Below are positions 335 to 4,281 of a DNA stretch of 4,281 nucleotides, in pieces. This stretch comes from a virus (taxonomy: Duplodnaviria > Heunggongvirae > Uroviricota > Caudoviricetes). The stretch's first letter is position 1. Each line of letters opens with the position of its first letter. Where the stretch lies: the IMG/VR virus record IMGVR_UViG_3300029190_000076; one strand, 5' to 3'. The notes beneath the pieces were generated by a model, which did not search any database, was not told where the DNA came from, and saw nothing but the letters and a program-made list of their open reading frames with translations. The translations under genes were made by a program, and so were the position numbers.

Positions 335-795
335 GCTTTAGCCCTTCTTAGTAAATAGTGTGTAGGGCGACTGAAGGACCGAGTTTATGCTTTTTCGCAT
401 TGCTTTCAGTTAGTACACCGGTATCGCACCGGAAACAATCCTACGGCAAATTGGTTGTCTGACCTCTCGGTTTTTCGTGCATTAACCGATACCCACTACA
501 GTCTCGGCGAAAGCTGCACACCCCCAGGGTGTACTGGTAGCACTCGGCACAGCCTAGCACGCCACTTTCTTCTCACTATCCAGTCTAATTTTATCCCCTA
601 GTCAGACACTCAGATGTAGTGCTCCGCAGCGGCATGCGGGGGAATACAAAAACTCGGACAAAATTGGGCCCTCCTTTTTGAATCACTCGCGGGGATGTAG
701 TTATTAATACATGGAAAAAGATCTGTTTTCAAATCCAACATTATATGGTTTCAATACCACGGGGTGGCTATGTGTTTCTCATTGTTAATTGGAAT
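335..795 (-). other. 461-bp ORF-free spacer between two same-strand ORFs; candidate structured non-coding RNA or long 5' leader, function unknown
   Basis: After the TAG at 798-796 all three minus-strand frames hit stops within 15 codons, and stops recur throughout. The supplied track has no ORF on either strand between 335 and 763. Inverted repeats read directly on the + strand: 412-419 agtacacc with 528-535 ggtgtact (8 bp, about 108 nt apart); 378-383 accgag with 466-471 ctcggt; 370-375 actgaa with 405-410 ttcagt, enclosing 387-390 atgc with 397-400 gcat; local hairpin 518-523 acaccc with 527-532 gggtgt (3-nt loop). GC is visibly higher than in the adjacent recombinase gene. Confidence 0.3.
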
Positions 796-1230: not shown

Positions 1231-2757
1231 TCAAAAATAAACCTCACCATCAACCATATATTTGAGAGTACTTATCGCCTGCTGGGCGGATATTGTTTTC
1301 ATTAAAGGATAGTGTTTAAAAACAATGCCATTCATAAAATAGATATCACAGGTTTTATTATCTGTATTGATTATGATTTTTTCGAATGTTTTATAGGCAA
1401 GTGTACGACATAGCTCTCGCCCATTTTTACTGGTTAAGTCAATAGCATGAAAATCACCAAGTGAACTCACCGCTTTACTCTTCAAAGTTTTTAATGATAC
1501 AGAAGCCCTTCGTAATTCCTTATCTAATACTCTGATTTTTTCTGCTATAGCGGTAACTTCAGGCGCAACAGATAATGCAGCAATTAAATTATTAATTTTC
1601 ATCTGGAGCTCAATAATTTTCAACTCTAAAGTTTCATTAGCATCTTTCTTGTTTTCAACTGGTTGGATTTTACTACAATTAAAAAGCAACTCATTAATGA
1701 TATTATAATCAACCAAATCTCTCTTTATTGATGGCCTGTCACATCGATGCAGTCTTCTCATCGGACAAACATAATAGCCATGCAAACTTCCAGATACCGC
1801 ATGAACAATCATGGTATTACCACAAGCCTCGCACTTCATAACTGTTCGAAGTAGATTTATCAACATAGGATTTTTGCTACTATTGCTAATACCAAAAGGT
1901 GCCAACCGAATTTCCTGTACAGCGTAAAACAAATCATCTGATATGACTCTGGGATAATAGCCAGCGATTTCACTTATTCCTTTACCTCTTGCACGATATG
2001 AAGGTACGCATATACCTATCAGAGCTTTATTCGCTAATAATTTTTCAATTACAGAAGGTCCCCATGCACTTTCTTTTCCTGAGAAATTCTTTACAGCATG
2101 ATCATTTAAATACTTGGCTATTGCATTCAATGAGCGCCTTTCCATCCTGAGTTTAAAAATTAGCTCAATAGTTTTCACCCTGTCGGGGTCTGGAACAAAA
2201 GCCGTTCTTTTGTCATCTAAGGAGAGCCATCTCGGACAAGACGCCGTCATAATCGTACCTGATTCCAGTGCATCCTGCCGTTTTTTCTTCCATGATAATT
2301 TAACCCGACTTGACTTTATCTCGCTTTCTTCATTTGCCCTTTGTGCTATAAGTATGGCTTTTATTAATGAATATGGCTCATTCAAAGAGTCAATATTATA
2401 GACTGTATTGTCGCAAAGAGTTATAACATCAATACCGTGATTCAAAATCAATTTCAGACGTTCAATCGCTTCACCGACTTTTTCTCTTGAAAGTCTGTCC
2501 AGACTTTCAACTAACAATGTAGTTCCTGGCAATATATAACCATGCTCTATAGCATCTAAAAATTCCGAAAAAGCTCCTGATTGTGCATGCTTTCCTTTGA
2601 ATGCACTTAATCCTAAATCTTCATATGTTATGGTATCAAGATAATAATCACTATTTACCTTTAACCATTCAGCAATAAGTCTTCTCTGTCGGTTTAATGA
2701 GTCGCCAGACATCTGACCTGGTGATGAAAATCGCATATATGCTATGGCTTTTTTCAT
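1231..2757 (-). CDS. ybcK: Large serine recombinase (resolvase/invertase-type catalytic domain + recombinase domain + zinc ribbon + coiled coil), 508 aa; YbcK-like
   Basis: N-terminus MKKAIAYMRFSSPGQ carries the Y-x-R-x-S catalytic motif, with Ser11 as predicted nucleophile. DSLNRQ and LLVESLDRLSR motifs are typical of the serine-recombinase catalytic domain. A Cys4 zinc-ribbon pattern follows (CEAC ... YYVC ... HRC), then a predicted C-terminal coiled coil (ETLELKIIELQMKINNLIAALS...). AGGTG SD at 2767-2763, 5 nt before the ATG at 2757-2755. Length 508 aa and position just downstream of emrE match my recollection of ybcK in the E. coli K-12 DLP12 prophage. Very AT-rich, about 30% GC on a hand-counted sample line. 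Confidence 0.9.
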   Translation of the reverse strand: MKKAIAYMRFSSPGQMSGDSLNRQRRLIAEWLKVNSDYYLDTITYEDLGLSAFKGKHAQSGAFSEFLDAIEHGYILPGTTLLVESLDRLSREKVGEAIERLKLILNHGIDVITLCDNTVYNIDSLNEPYSLIKAILIAQRANEESEIKSSRVKLSWKKKRQDALESGTIMTASCPRWLSLDDKRTAFVPDPDRVKTIELIFKLRMERRSLNAIAKYLNDHAVKNFSGKESAWGPSVIEKLLANKALIGICVPSYRARGKGISEIAGYYPRVISDDLFYAVQEIRLAPFGISNSSKNPMLINLLRTVMKCEACGNTMIVHAVSGSLHGYYVCPMRRLHRCDRPSIKRDLVDYNIINELLFNCSKIQPVENKKDANETLELKIIELQMKINNLIAALSVAPEVTAIAEKIRVLDKELRRASVSLKTLKSKAVSSLGDFHAIDLTSKNGRELCRTLAYKTFEKIIINTDNKTCDIYFMNGIVFKHYPLMKTISAQQAISTLKYMVDGEVYF

Positions 2758-2940
2758 GGTGACACCTGCTAACGTATGCTTTTATAAACCTTAGTGGTGG
2801 GATATAATTTTTGTTTAATTTTTATTTAAAAAGACAATTAAGGTCACATTATCTTGAATATACAACAATAATCGTATTGCAATTTTCTTACGCCATAATC
2901 TTGAAAGCACAAAAGAATACATAAAAAAATAAAGACATTA
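2758..2940 (-). promoter_or_regulatory. AT-rich spacer upstream of the recombinase gene containing its RBS and presumably its promoter; exact -35/-10 not assigned
   Basis: Extremely AT-rich (for example 2801-2860 atataatttttgtttaatttttatttaaaaagacaattaaggtcacattatcttgaatat). Lies between the emrE terminator and the recombinase start. Several TATAAT-like hexamers are present, but none could be singled out by eye. Confidence 0.3.
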
Positions 2941-2982
2941 ACAAAAAGCATAAAACGAGGCTCATATAAATATAAGAGCCTC
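2941..2982 (-). terminator. Putative rho-independent terminator downstream of emrE
   Basis: On the minus strand, about 31 nt after the emrE stop: 7-bp stem GAGGCTC/GAGCCTC (+ strand 2957-2963 and 2976-2982) with a 12-nt loop, followed by the U-rich run GUUUUAUGCUUUUUGU (reverse complement of + 2941-2956). The loop is larger than ideal, hence moderate confidence. Confidence 0.45.
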
Positions 2983-3013
2983 CATATTTTAGTCGTTTAG
3001 AAACAAATTATTT

Positions 3014-3346
3014 TTAATGTGGTGTGCTTCGTGACAATAAATTAATAACCAACACACCGGCACAAATCAACATCATGCCTATAATGGCTGGCAGGTCCAG
3101 CCGTTGGCCGAAAAGTCCCCATGACAGTAAGCTAATCAGGACAATACCGACTCCTGACCAGATAGCATAAGCAATCCCTGTAGGAATATAAGCCAGCGTC
3201 TGAGCTAATAACCAGAATGATGCACAATAACAAATAATTGTACCAACAGATGGCCATAACCGTGTAAAACCTTCTGAAAACTTCATTAAGGTTGTACCAA
3301 TGACCTCTGCAAGTATTGCACCACCAAGATAAATATAAGGGTTCAT
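3014..3346 (-). CDS. emrE: SMR-family multidrug efflux transporter EmrE (110 aa)
   Basis: Product MNPYIYLGGAILAEVIGTTLMKFSEGFTRLWPSVGTIICYCASFWLLAQTLAYIPTGIAYAIWSGVGIVLISLLSWGLFGQRLDLPAIIGMMLICAGVLVINLLSRSTPH matches E. coli EmrE nearly residue-for-residue from memory. The membrane-embedded Glu14 essential for proton/drug coupling is present, with four hydrophobic segments. Start placed at ATG 3346-3344 rather than the track's 3400: this gives the canonical 110-aa length and has AGGAAAG at 3361-3355 upstream. Stop TAA at 3016-3014. Confidence 0.95.
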   Translation of the reverse strand: MNPYIYLGGAILAEVIGTTLMKFSEGFTRLWPSVGTIICYCASFWLLAQTLAYIPTGIAYAIWSGVGIVLISLLSWGLFGQRLDLPAIIGMMLICAGVLVINLLSRSTPH

Positions 3347-3361
3347 AGAATATTCTTTCCT

Positions 3362-3396
3362 GTTCAAACTGGAGAGAATTGTACTACAGTTTGAAC
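3362..3396. repeat. Perfect 10-bp inverted repeat (gttcaaactg / cagtttgaac) with 15-bp spacer, between ren stop and emrE RBS
   Basis: Read directly: + strand 3362-3371 gttcaaactg is the exact reverse complement of 3387-3396 cagtttgaac. The 15-nt spacer is gagagaattgtacta. The arm at 3362 abuts the emrE SD at 3361. No U-tract follows on the minus strand, so it is not a canonical intrinsic terminator. Confidence 0.6.
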
Positions 3397-3413
3397 TCAA
3401 CTCACCTGTTTCA

Positions 3414-3716
3414 TCATTGTGTACCCATTGATGTTCTTTTATATACCCTCAATACCCGTTTCATCGCGGCACTCTGGCGACACTCCTTAAAAATCAGATT
3501 CGTGCTCACCTTTCCTTCCCGTTCTTCTCTGGTAGCAAACCGGTAATACACCGTTCGCCAGACCTTACCTTCGATAGCCAGAAGACCTGCCCGTGCCATT
3601 TTAGCCGCAGCCTGATTTATGCTGGTTACCGTTGCGCCTGTTACCGCGGCAACGTCCTGCGCACAGAATTTCTTATGAGTCCCCAGGTAATGAATAATTG
3701 CCTCTTTGCCCGTCAT
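3414..3716 (-). CDS. ren: Lambda Ren-like protein (100 aa)
   Basis: Product MTGKEAIIHYLGTHKKFCAQDVAAVTGATVTSINQAAAKMARAGLLAIEGKVWRTVYYRFATREEREGKVSTNLIFKECRQSAAMKRVLRVYKRTSMGTQ resembles lambda Ren from memory. The start ATG at 3716-3714 overlaps the stop TGA of the upstream P-like gene at 3715-3713 (ATGA), as I recall for the P/ren junction in lambda. Confidence 0.8.
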   Translation of the reverse strand: MTGKEAIIHYLGTHKKFCAQDVAAVTGATVTSINQAAAKMARAGLLAIEGKVWRTVYYRFATREEREGKVSTNLIFKECRQSAAMKRVLRVYKRTSMGTQ

Positions 3717-4281
3717 ACCCTTGCTCCTTTCAGCCCAAACTTAGCTTTGATTTCTGCGATCTTCGCCAGAGCCTGTGCACGATTTAGAGGTCTACCGCCC
3801 ATGACAGGAAGTTGTTTTACTGGTTCAGGTATAGCCTCACCACGGTTAATTCGTGCGGTCATACAGGACAGTTCATCGGCAGCCTTGCGCCGTAATTCCG
3901 CGTCAGTCAACGCATTGGCCCGCATGTTCTGATACAGGTTGGTAACCAGCCAGTAGTGCGCGTTTGATTTCCACGGATAAGACTCTGCATCCGGATACAG
4001 CCCGCGCTTCCGGCAATACTCGTAAACCATATCAACCAGCTCGCTGGCGTTTGGCAGCCCGGCGGTAACGGATGCTTCTTCCCGGCACCAGGCGACAAAC
4101 TGCCCGGGTGATGGCAGGAATGGTCGATTCTGCCGACGGGCTACGCGCATTCCAGCGTTAACCTGTTCCATTGTGGTGATCCCGTTTTCCCGAAAAGCCA
4201 GCACCCACTGGCGGCGGATTTCGTTCAGTTCATTCTGGTCACGGTTAGCCAGGCTCGCCGGGAAAGTTGCCAGTAACTGGC
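3713..4281 (-). CDS. P: Lambda-type replication protein P (DnaB helicase loader), C-terminal portion; 5' end lies beyond the right window edge
   Basis: Track ORF 3713..4204 begins at an internal GTG. Hand translation of 4205-4279 stays open in the same frame (QLLATFPASLANRDQNELNEIRRQW, then VLAFRENGITTMEQVNAGMRVARRQNRPFLPSPGQFVAWCREE...KAKFGLKGARV), so the gene continues upstream of the window. Sequence matches lambda P closely from memory. GC is about 53% on a hand-counted sample line. Confidence 0.85.
   Translation of the reverse strand, partial: QLLATFPASLANRDQNELNEIRRQWVLAFRENGITTMEQVNAGMRVARRQNRPFLPSPGQFVAWCREEASVTAGLPNASELVDMVYEYCRKRGLYPDAESYPWKSNAHYWLVTNLYQNMRANALTDAELRRKAADELSCMTARINRGEAIPEPVKQLPVMGGRPLNRAQALAKIAEIKAKFGLKGARV

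What the first reader, a model, noticed from the sequence alone, without database searches (positions are those of the whole stretch)
3347..3413. Perfect 10-bp inverted repeat abutting the emrE ribosome-binding site
gttcaaactg (3362-3371) and cagtttgaac (3387-3396) are exact reverse complements with a 15-bp spacer. In the mRNA the 3' arm ends one nucleotide before the emrE SD. The element also sits exactly at the junction between the phage replication module (ren) and the emrE cargo. It could be an operator for a dimeric regulator, an mRNA stem-loop that tunes emrE translation or stabilises the ren transcript end, or a recombination scar from cargo insertion.
Basis: seen in the sequence. Interest (0 to 1): 0.45.

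Follow-up and report, generated by a model that had tools for sequence, protein, structure and literature searches.

The report
Palindrome over the emrE promoter
The perfect 10-bp inverted repeat is real, but it lies on top of the emrE gene's own promoter and transcription start, so the main emrE mRNA cannot form the proposed hairpin; this is an ordinary promoter region that happens to have two-fold symmetry.

Summary
The repeat is exactly as described: 3362-3371 and 3387-3396, 10/10 complementary, 15-bp spacer. It is the best inverted repeat in the window, but 7.6% of shuffled windows contain one as good.

All genes here are on the minus strand, in a DLP12/lambda-like prophage. A published Cappable-seq start site in E. 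coli K-12, whose promoter-to-SD stretch matches the window apart from one base between SD and ATG, maps to A3370. That is 24 nt before the emrE ATG and inside the SD-proximal arm. The "loop" holds the -10 hexamer TACAAT (3383-3378). The other arm is promoter spacer. The primary emrE mRNA therefore lacks one arm. The hairpin (-11.9 kcal/mol) can form only in read-through RNA from ren.

The element is not at the recombination junction. Homology to emrE-less lambdoid phages ends at 3441-3447, inside ren.

The repeat is perfect in prophage-borne copies. It carries an A·A mismatch in the more common chromosomal emrE island, and it decays further in other Escherichia species, while the -10 and SD stay conserved.

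It is not a terminator and matches no Rfam family. An operator, or a hairpin that keeps the SD open in read-through RNA, remains possible but unsupported.

Verdict: ordinary, low interest.

The parts
3362..3396 (.). The 35-bp dyad element: two perfect 10-bp arms and a 15-bp spacer
   Evidence: As RNA (minus-strand sense) the isolated hairpin has -11.9 kcal/mol.
3400..3405 (-). Weak -35-like hexamer GTGAGT (3 of 6 matches), 16 bp upstream of the -10
   Evidence: Read from the sequence relative to the mapped start. The GGTGA(G/A)TT block is conserved in all Escherichia emrE loci. Its role as the -35 is inferred, not shown.
3387..3396 (-). Upstream arm (GTTCAAACTG in mRNA sense), at promoter positions -26 to -17. 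It is not part of the primary transcript.
   Evidence: Position relative to the start site at 3370.
3378..3383 (-). -10 hexamer TACAAT, lying in the 'loop' of the repeat (positions -13 to -8)
   Evidence: It sits 7 nt upstream of the mapped start. TA(C/G)AAT is conserved in E. coli, E. whittamii, E. ruysiae, E. albertii and Citrobacter murliniae.
3370..3370 (-). Transcription start (+1, an A), 24 nt before the emrE ATG
   Evidence: Cappable-seq TSS at U00096.2 position 567514 (+), relative read score 12.9, log2 enrichment 3.77. This converts to NC_000913.3 position 568291. emrE starts at 568315. The +777 offset is checked by the C/A start configuration and by a second TSS. K-12 is identical to the window from -59 to +21.
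3362..3371 (-). SD-proximal arm (CAGTTTGAAC in mRNA sense), at positions -1 to +9. This is initially transcribed sequence.
   Evidence: It is the least conserved part of the element across Escherichia.
3355..3361 (-). Shine-Dalgarno region AGGAAAG of emrE
   Evidence: Read from the sequence. It is invariant in all Escherichia loci.
3014..3346 (-). emrE coding sequence (110 aa SMR transporter)
2943..2982 (-). emrE intrinsic terminator: hairpin GAGGCUCUUAUA-UU-UAUAUGAGCCUC followed by a U-rich run
   Evidence: Fold z-score -2.76. A hairpin plus T-run sits at the same place with different stem sequences in E. albertii and E. whittamii.
3441..3447 (-). ren / emrE-cassette junction: a 7-bp stretch GGTATAT shared by lambda-type ren, this window and the E. 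albertii emrE island
   Evidence: GC content drops from 51-57% to 31-41% here.
3414..3716 (-). ren, whose last 9 codons come from the cassette (C-terminus ...RVYKRTSMGTQ, against ...AVYGVKR in phage 434)

Best explanation
The 35-bp element is the core of emrE's own sigma-70 promoter.

- RNA polymerase uses a weak -35 (GTGAGT, 3405-3400) and the -10 hexamer TACAAT (3383-3378), which lies in the 'loop' of the repeat.
- Transcription starts at A3370, the second base of the SD-proximal arm.
- The resulting mRNA has a 24-nt leader (AGUUUGAACAGGAAAGAAUAUUCU-AUG) that carries the SD but not the upstream arm. The hairpin therefore does not exist in the primary emrE transcript.
- With the terminator at 2943-2982, this makes emrE a self-contained, AT-rich cargo unit (a 'moron') that is carried with about 95 bp of its own upstream DNA into several genomic contexts.
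- The two-fold symmetry itself is most likely incidental or only weakly selected. One arm is promoter spacer and the other is initially transcribed sequence.
- The hairpin can form only in longer RNAs that read through from ren (pR-driven during induction, or IS3-driven in K-12). There it would leave the SD open.

Shown: the repeat, the start site (in K-12, on near-identical sequence), the homology breakpoints, the conservation pattern and the terminator. Inferred: sigma-70 usage, the -35 assignment, transfer of the start site to this prophage, and the lack of a dedicated function for the dyad.
For: - Start site: the Cappable-seq TSS at U00096.2 567514(+) has RRS 12.9 against a cut-off of 1.5, and log2 enrichment 3.77, which marks a triphosphate 5' end. 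It converts to 24 nt upstream of the emrE ATG.
- Spacing: with this conversion the start is C|A and the -10 TACAAT lies 7 nt upstream. A second TSS in the same table shows the same spacing.
- Transferability: K-12 and the window are identical from -59 to +21.
- Conservation matches a promoter, not a stem. GGTGA, TAGTA(C/G)AAT and AGGAAAGAATA are kept across five Escherichia lineages. Positions -6 to +9, which include the SD-proximal arm, vary.
- The element travels with emrE. Window 3006-3423 is found next to fliE in the chromosomal island and next to folD in cryptic clades, and homology to the E. albertii integrase island runs upstream to 3447.
- A terminator lies downstream and the GC content shifts at about 3440.
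- The perfect repeat is not the general state. Of 3675 E. coli genomes with the 49-mer, 1276 are identical and 2396 are 95-99% identical, mostly the allele with an A·A mismatch.
- Paraquat-evolved strains acquired IS1, or a 9-bp target duplication at -39 (which is -15 relative to the start), in this region. One study measured higher emrE expression. This fits a weak native promoter.
Against: - The start site was mapped in K-12, where ren is interrupted by IS3. It was not mapped in this prophage, and I found it in one dataset only. Three other papers' supplements held nothing usable and a fourth had no supplementary files held.
- The -35 is poor (3/6). The consensus scanner did not call a promoter here. 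The RpoD genomic SELEX paper lists emrE only as the flanking gene of a site between emrE and ybcK (labelled renD-emrE) and lists none in front of emrE.
- Rooting with E. albertii suggests the perfect stem is derived. Three substitutions (+1, +4, +6) each raised complementarity. E. albertii also shows two double-sided changes that keep pairs. This hints at selection on the dyad. It is confounded, though, because the repeat was flagged precisely for being perfect.
- IS1 insertion between the arms would also fit loss of an operator.
Confidence: 0.6

Rival explanations
1. The repeat is a functional RNA stem-loop, but only in read-through transcripts, such as pR-O-P-ren-emrE RNA during prophage induction. 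The 10-bp stem ties up the sequence next to the pyrimidine-rich stretch UUCUCUCC. Otherwise that stretch pairs with the SD (GGAAAGAA). The hairpin thus keeps the SD accessible so that emrE is translated from the long phage RNA.
For: - There is no terminator between ren and emrE. In phage 434 an annotated terminator (lambda's tR2 position, from own knowledge) sits at that place.
- In a 166-nt read-through RNA, the predicted SD unpaired probability is 0.66 for the perfect allele. It is 0.31 for the fliE-island allele, where the minimum-energy fold pairs AUUCUCUCC with the SD.
- The hairpin energy is -11.9 kcal/mol for the perfect allele and -8.2 for the fliE-island allele.
- The perfect stem is tied to the ren-downstream context: 68 of 79 viral loci and 108 loci in a pattern scan.
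- A G·U wobble is tolerated at one pair in four lineages, plus a second pair in E. albertii, and E. albertii has two compensatory pairs.
Against: - The 91-nt fold is no better than shuffles (z = -0.14).
- There is no Rfam match.
- The stem is weak in other Escherichia (-2 to -5 kcal/mol).
- All covariation comes from one lineage, and 20 of 500 shuffles do as well.
- The link with the prophage context can be a single inherited event.
- The effect on the SD is a prediction only.
Confidence: 0.2
2. The repeat is an operator for a dimeric repressor that covers the -10 and the start site of emrE.
For: - The dyad is centred at about -9 and spans -26 to +9, a classic repressor position.
- Multidrug pump genes are often controlled this way (established knowledge, for example QacR at qacA).
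- IS1 insertions in this region raise emrE expression.
- The symmetry appears to have increased in E. coli alleles.
Against: - No regulator gene lies in the window. In the chromosomal island the neighbour ybcM is an AraC-type protein, and that family does not typically use such dyads.
- The half-sites are 25 bp apart centre to centre, about 2.4 helical turns, so they lie on different faces.
- The second half-site is not conserved.
- The motif occurs nowhere else in 2.9 million viral contigs apart from emrE leaders and one unrelated hit.
- The literature searches found no emrE regulator.
Confidence: 0.13
3. The repeat is a recombination scar or attachment-site remnant from insertion of the emrE cargo, or a site for the nearby YbcK serine recombinase.
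For: It lies in the spacer between a phage gene and a cargo gene. A large serine recombinase gene (ybcK) lies about 600 bp downstream of it.
Against: - Homology to emrE-less phages ends at 3441, and homology to other emrE islands begins at 3447 or 3423.
- The ybcK segment begins at 3006, on the far side of emrE.
- The repeat is present, with one mismatch, in islands that have neither ren nor ybcK.
Confidence: 0.02
4. The repeat is a terminator or 3' stabiliser for the ren transcript, replacing lambda tR2.
For: It occupies roughly the place where phage 434 has an annotated terminator after ren.
Against: - The stem is AT-rich, with 4 G-C pairs out of 10.
- The loop is 15 nt, or 9 nt with the extension.
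- It is followed by AGGAAAGAAUAUUCU, with no U-tract.
- The terminator scan finds nothing.
Confidence: 0.02

Closest known systems
Phage 'morons': independent cargo transcription units in lambdoid prophages, such as lambda bor and lom or the HK97/HK022 morons (Hendrix/Juhala concept; own knowledge)
   Same: emrE is an AT-rich cargo gene placed between conserved phage modules. It has its own promoter (mapped start at -24) and its own intrinsic terminator, so it can be expressed from the repressed prophage.
   Different: Nothing essential differs. The only special feature is that the promoter is embedded in a perfect 10-bp dyad. The cassette's left edge also overwrites the last 9 codons of ren.
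Repressor operators that overlap the -10 and +1 of drug-efflux genes, such as QacR on IR1 at qacA or TetR at tetA (own knowledge)
   Same: An inverted repeat covers the -10 and the transcription start of a multidrug transporter gene.
   Different: There is no cognate regulator gene nearby. The 10-bp arms are split by 15 bp. The second arm drifts among orthologous loci. No binding has been shown.
Lambda tR2 intrinsic terminator downstream of ren
   Same: It occupies the same relative position, immediately after ren.
   Different: tR2 is a GC-rich hairpin with a U-tract (annotated in phage 434). The present element has neither feature and is unrelated in sequence. tR2 has been displaced by the cassette.
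RNA leaders that regulate SMR transporter genes: guanidine-II (mini-ykkC) and guanidine-III riboswitches
   Same: They are structured RNAs directly upstream of an SMR gene's ribosome-binding site.
   Different: There is no Rfam match at E <= 1. The characteristic loop motifs and covariation are absent. The primary transcript starts inside the stem.

Membership tests
Sigma-70 promoter | -10 hexamer close to TATAAT, 6-8 nt upstream of the start | tested here: met
   TACAAT (5/6) lies at 3383-3378, 7 nt upstream of A3370. It is conserved as TA(C/G)AAT across Escherichia and in Citrobacter murliniae.
Sigma-70 promoter | Experimentally mapped triphosphate 5' end | tested here: met
   Cappable-seq TSS at 567514(+) in U00096.2, RRS 12.9, enrichment 3.77. 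It maps to -24 of emrE. It was measured in K-12, not in this prophage.
Sigma-70 promoter | -35 hexamer close to TTGACA at 16-18 bp | tested here: inconclusive
   The best candidate is GTGAGT (3/6) at 16 bp. The scanner's threshold was not reached. There is no extended -10 TG.
Phage moron | Own promoter and own terminator flanking a non-phage gene between phage modules, with a composition shift | tested here: met
   Promoter as above. Terminator hairpin plus T-run at 2943-2982 with z = -2.76. GC 31-41% against 51-57% in P/ren. Phages without emrE join ren directly to the nin region.
Intrinsic terminator | GC-rich stem, short loop, and a U-tract directly 3' of the stem | tested here: not met
   One search found 0 sites. 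The stem has 4 G-C pairs out of 10, the loop is 9-15 nt, and the tail is AGGAAAGAAUAUUCU.
Palindromic operator of a dimeric regulator | Both half-sites conserved in orthologous loci | tested here: not met
   The SD-proximal arm varies: CAGTTTGAAC, CAGTATGAAC, CGGTATTAAC, CGGAATTATC.
Palindromic operator of a dimeric regulator | Cognate regulator encoded nearby, or the motif recurring at other promoters | tested here: not met
   No regulator ORF lies in the window. The motif is unique to emrE leaders in viral contigs. Host-genome regulon sites could not be scanned.
Palindromic operator of a dimeric regulator | Demonstrated protein binding | not testable with these tools
   This needs EMSA, pull-down or ChIP.
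Conserved cis-regulatory RNA structure (riboswitch or leader) | Match to a curated family, or covariation that supports the stem | tested here: not met
   There is no Rfam hit at E <= 1. The 79 prophage copies show no compensatory change. The only two double-sided changes are both in E. albertii, and 20 of 500 shuffles equal the score.
Conserved cis-regulatory RNA structure (riboswitch or leader) | The whole structure lies within the gene's transcript | tested here: not met
   The primary start at 3370 excludes the upstream arm. Only read-through RNA contains both arms.
Recombination scar / att site | Homology breakpoints coincide with the element | tested here: not met
   The breakpoints are at 3441-3447, 3423 and 3006.

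The most novel reading that the evidence does not exclude
The element has two uses. As DNA it is the emrE promoter used in the lysogen. As RNA, in long pR-driven transcripts made on induction, the same bases form a hairpin that stops an upstream pyrimidine tract from masking the SD. Under this reading, the substitutions at +1, +4 and +6 that made the stem perfect were selected after the cassette came to lie downstream of co-directional genes (fliE, ren).
Probability: 0.12. Interest if true: 0.4.

Novelty: new member of a known kind. Interest (0 to 1): 0.2.

Why it matters
emrE is the textbook small multidrug transporter, yet the searches run here found no paper describing its promoter or a regulator.

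- Placing its start site inside this palindrome gives a concrete promoter map: -10, +1, a 24-nt leader and a terminator.
- The map helps explain why laboratory evolution under paraquat repeatedly hits this spot with IS1.
- It shows that emrE moves between prophages and chromosomal islands as a unit that carries its own promoter.
- Beyond that, the palindrome is not a new kind of element. If the dual promoter/hairpin reading were true, it would be a modest example of how a cargo gene adapts its leader to being read through by phage transcription.

Tried and rejected
- Rfam at E <= 1 over the whole window gave no hit.
- The terminator and promoter consensus scan found nothing on the minus strand at the element.
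- The 91-nt fold has an unremarkable z-score.
- I looked for the TSS in other datasets. The Adams 2021 eLife, ROSE and EDL933 Cappable-seq supplements had no usable entries. The Rend-seq annotation paper had no supplementary files held. Thomason 2015 is not held.
- Literature searches for an emrE promoter or regulator found none. PMC6805155 was a false lead.
- To get more lineages for covariation, I scanned metagenome and viral contigs with a pattern for clade-type leaders and got 0 hits. Seven EmrE protein variants of 86-94% identity all turned out to be the two known E. coli alleles.
- I checked by eye for sigma-E, sigma-28, extended -10, marbox, LexA, CRP, PurR and ArgR-like readings of the sequence. 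None fits the spacing or the mapped start.
- I considered an IS1 hybrid-promoter explanation for the ALE insertion, working from memory of the IS1 ends. No convincing -35 appears at the reported position, so I left it open.
- I considered the apparent directional 'perfecting' of the stem as proof of selection and discounted it. The repeat was chosen for being perfect, so changes on its own lineage must appear improving. The upstream segment also shows recombination or homoplasy.

Full report
**What the window is.** All genes are on the minus strand. In order they are replication gene P (3713-4204+), ren (3414-3716), emrE (3014-3346), a ylcJ remnant, the large serine recombinase ybcK (1231-2757) and a P22AR-C-domain ORF (796-1119). 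The P-ren-emrE stretch (3000-3760) is 100% identical to a DLP12-type prophage at the argU/fimZ site of E. coli FDAARGOS_497. It is 99.9% identical to phage Turner.

**The observation.** The repeat is exactly as described: gttcaaactg at 3362-3371 and cagtttgaac at 3387-3396, 10/10 complementary, 15 bp apart. It is the top inverted repeat in the window and extends to 13 nt at 92%.
- It lies in the 67-bp spacer between the ren stop (3416-3414) and the emrE ATG (3346).
- In mRNA sense the proximal arm ends at 3362 and AGGAAAG follows at 3361-3355.
- By chance alone it is not compelling. 7.6% of dinucleotide shuffles of the window contain a perfect 10-bp repeat with a 3-20 bp spacer, and the window has a second one inside ybcK.
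- The 91-nt RNA around it folds no better than shuffles (z = -0.14), although the hairpin is part of the minimum-energy fold.
- It matches no Rfam family and no terminator pattern.

**Where the cargo junction really is.** Complete E. coli genomes fall into three classes.
- P-ren-emrE, as in this window: about 1400 genomes.
- emrE-ybcL-ybcM next to fliE, with no phage genes. Here homology to the window runs only from 3006 to 3423 at about 92%.
- ren-P prophages without emrE, where homology starts at about 3441.

Base-by-base comparison shows that homology to phage 434 ren stops at 3441. Homology to the E. albertii emrE island starts at 3447. The 7 bp GGTATAT are shared. GC content falls from 51-57% to 31-41% at this point. 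The junction is therefore inside ren, whose last 9 codons come from the cassette. It lies 45-51 bp from the repeat. The repeat belongs to the emrE cassette and travels with it into three non-phage contexts: beside fliE in E. coli, beside folD in the cryptic clades, and beside an integrase in E. albertii. This rejects the 'scar' reading.

**The key result: a start site inside the repeat.** The Cappable-seq table for E. coli K-12 MG1655 (PMC4782308, supplementary file 1) lists a plus-strand TSS at U00096.2 position 567514.
- Its relative read score is 12.9 against a cut-off of 1.5.
- Its log2 enrichment is 3.77, which marks a triphosphate end.
- emrE starts at 568315 in NC_000913.3.
- The offset between the two genome versions at this locus is +777. 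This is from my own knowledge: a 776-bp IS1 plus 1 bp. The total length difference of 1977 bp fits.
- With that offset the start is an A preceded by C, with TACAAT 7 nt upstream. A second TSS in the same table, at 567166, then also sits 7 nt downstream of a TACAAT. Offsets of 776 or 778 fit less well.

The start is 24 nt before the ATG. It is the A of CAGTTTGAAC, which is window position 3370. K-12 and the window are identical from -59 to +21, so I transfer the start to this prophage by inference.

The resulting anatomy, in minus-strand sense:

| Feature | Window coordinates | Position relative to +1 |
|---|---|---|
| Weak -35, GTGAGT | 3405-3400 | -35 to -30 |
| Upstream arm (promoter spacer) | 3396-3387 | -26 to -17 |
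| -10, TACAAT (in the 'loop') | 3383-3378 | -13 to -8 |
| Start, A | 3370 | +1 |
| Proximal arm | 3371-3362 | -1 to +9 |
| SD, AGGAAAG | 3361-3355 | +10 to +16 |

The primary emrE mRNA lacks the upstream arm and cannot form the hairpin.

**A self-contained unit.** Downstream of emrE there is a hairpin plus U-run at 2943-2982 (z = -2.76). E. albertii and E. whittamii have a hairpin plus T-run at the same place with different stem sequences. Together these make emrE a self-contained unit, a classic prophage moron.

**Conservation.** In 79 prophage-borne copies from viral contigs the repeat is perfect in 68. It loses one pair in the other 11, never with compensation. A pattern scan found the perfect repeat 109 times: 108 are emrE leaders and one is unrelated.

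Among complete E. coli genomes, 3675 of 5426 carry the 49-mer 3355-3403. Of these, 1276 are identical and 2396 are 95-99% identical. The typical value of 95.9% equals the two mismatches of the fliE-island allele. One of those two puts an A·A mismatch in the middle of the stem.

| Lineage | Upstream arm | Proximal arm |
|---|---|---|
| Window prophage | GTTCAAACTG | CAGTTTGAAC |
| E. coli fliE island | GTTCAAACTG | CAGTATGAAC |
| E. whittamii, E. ruysiae, Escherichia sp. E1V33 | GTTCAAACTG | CGGTATTAAC |
| E. albertii | GACCAATTTG | CGGAATTATC |

Citrobacter murliniae has no repeat but keeps TAGTAGAAT. The features that stay constant are GGTGA, TAGTA(C/G)AAT and AGGAAAGAATA. That is the pattern expected of a promoter and SD, not of a stem.

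Isolated hairpin energies are -11.9 (window), -8.2 (fliE island), -2.3 to -4.9 (cryptic clades) and -2.1 kcal/mol (E. albertii).

Pair counting gives 85% of cells paired and two double-sided changes, both in E. albertii. 20 of 500 shuffles do as well.

**Is the dyad selected?** With E. albertii basal in the emrE gene tree, the imperfect state looks ancestral. The three changes at +1, +4 and +6 each raised complementarity. Two of them are shared by both E. coli alleles, in a small upstream segment whose phylogeny disagrees with the coding region. This could mean selection. However, the repeat was brought to attention because it is perfect, so every change on its own lineage must look improving. 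Recombination between co-resident alleles also explains the sharing. I treat this as a weak hint only.

**What the hairpin could do where it exists.** There is no terminator between ren and emrE, whereas phage 434 has an annotated one after ren. pR-driven RNA therefore runs into emrE. In a 166-nt read-through RNA, the perfect allele is predicted to keep the SD open (unpaired probability 0.66). In the fliE-island allele the tract AUUCUCUCC pairs with the SD instead (0.31). This is a prediction without experimental support.

**The operator idea.** The dyad spans -26 to +9, a good position for a repressor.
- Two laboratory-evolution studies under paraquat, an EmrE substrate, report hits in this region. 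One reports a 9-bp IS1-type insertion 39 bp upstream of emrE, which is -15 relative to the start and lies between the arms (bioRxiv 10.1101/2022.12.20.521246). The other reports IS1 insertions upstream of emrE in three lineages, with higher emrE expression (bioRxiv 10.64898/2026.03.03.709455).
- These results fit either a weak, perhaps H-NS-silenced, promoter (an H-NS mark is noted between emrE and ybcK in PMC3946193) or loss of an operator.
- Against an operator: there is no regulator gene nearby, the half-sites are 25 bp apart, the second half-site drifts, the motif does not recur, and the literature searched names no regulator.

| Reading | Confidence |
|---|---|
| Promoter, with the dyad itself incidental or weakly selected | about 0.6 |
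| Functional only as an RNA hairpin in read-through transcripts | about 0.2 |
| Operator | about 0.13 |
| Recombination scar | about 0.02 |
| Terminator | about 0.02 |

Confidence in the promoter and start-site anatomy alone is higher, about 0.85. It is a new, unremarkable member of a known kind, and interest is low.

Noticed in passing
window 361-696: About 336 bp without a sizeable ORF, lying between a hypothetical gene and the P22AR-C-domain ORF. It is 79.6% identical to two Klebsiella phages (OK490410 and OK490415), so it is a non-coding stretch conserved across host genera. There is no Rfam hit and no tRNA. The fold z-score is -0.5 on both strands.
   Followed up: partly
window 2943-2982 (minus strand): The emrE intrinsic terminator (hairpin plus U-run, z = -2.76). 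E. albertii and E. whittamii have a hairpin plus T-run at the same position with different, internally complementary stem sequences. In this strain it overlaps the annotated (frameshifted) small gene ylcJ.
   Followed up: partly
window 3347-3356: AGAATATTCT, directly between the SD and the ATG, is itself a perfect 10-bp palindrome in this allele. K-12 and most other copies have AGAATATGCT or ...GTT.
   Followed up: no
window 2487-2510: An 11-bp perfect inverted repeat (TTGAAAGTCTG / CAGACTTTCAA, 2-bp spacer) inside the ybcK coding sequence. It is as good as or better than the flagged repeat.
   Followed up: no
window 1231-3006: Homology to the chromosomal emrE-ybcL-ybcM island stops 8 nt after the emrE stop codon (3006). 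The ylcJ-ybcK (large serine recombinase) segment is therefore an insertion between emrE and ybcL. In this prophage ybcL and ybcM are absent altogether.
   Followed up: partly
L012-L019 (Citrobacter, Kluyvera, Erwinia, Pantoea emrE homologues), 64 nt upstream of the start codon: The 9-mer GTTCAAACT, the same as the upstream arm, recurs in front of emrE homologues of about 75% protein identity in the Citrobacter and Kluyvera loci; Erwinia and Pantoea have a diverged CTTCAGACA. There the TTCAAA sits 19 bp upstream of an extended -10 (TGnTAnnAT) and has no inverted partner. This suggests an old -35-like or regulator-contact element rather than a stem.
   Followed up: no
K-12 locus L166 (NC_000913.3 567943 and 568018): The Cappable-seq table also lists plus-strand starts inside the right end of IS3C (RRS 16.3 and 2.1). 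These point outward through the renD fragment towards emrE. In K-12, read-through RNA containing the whole hairpin may therefore come from IS3.
   Followed up: partly
window 3347-3400 (minus strand): The leader is open in the emrE frame from a TTG at 3400 (a 128-aa ORF). This explains the N-terminally extended EmrE annotations in databases (130-170 aa). The mapped start at -24 argues that these extensions are not made from the primary transcript.
   Followed up: no
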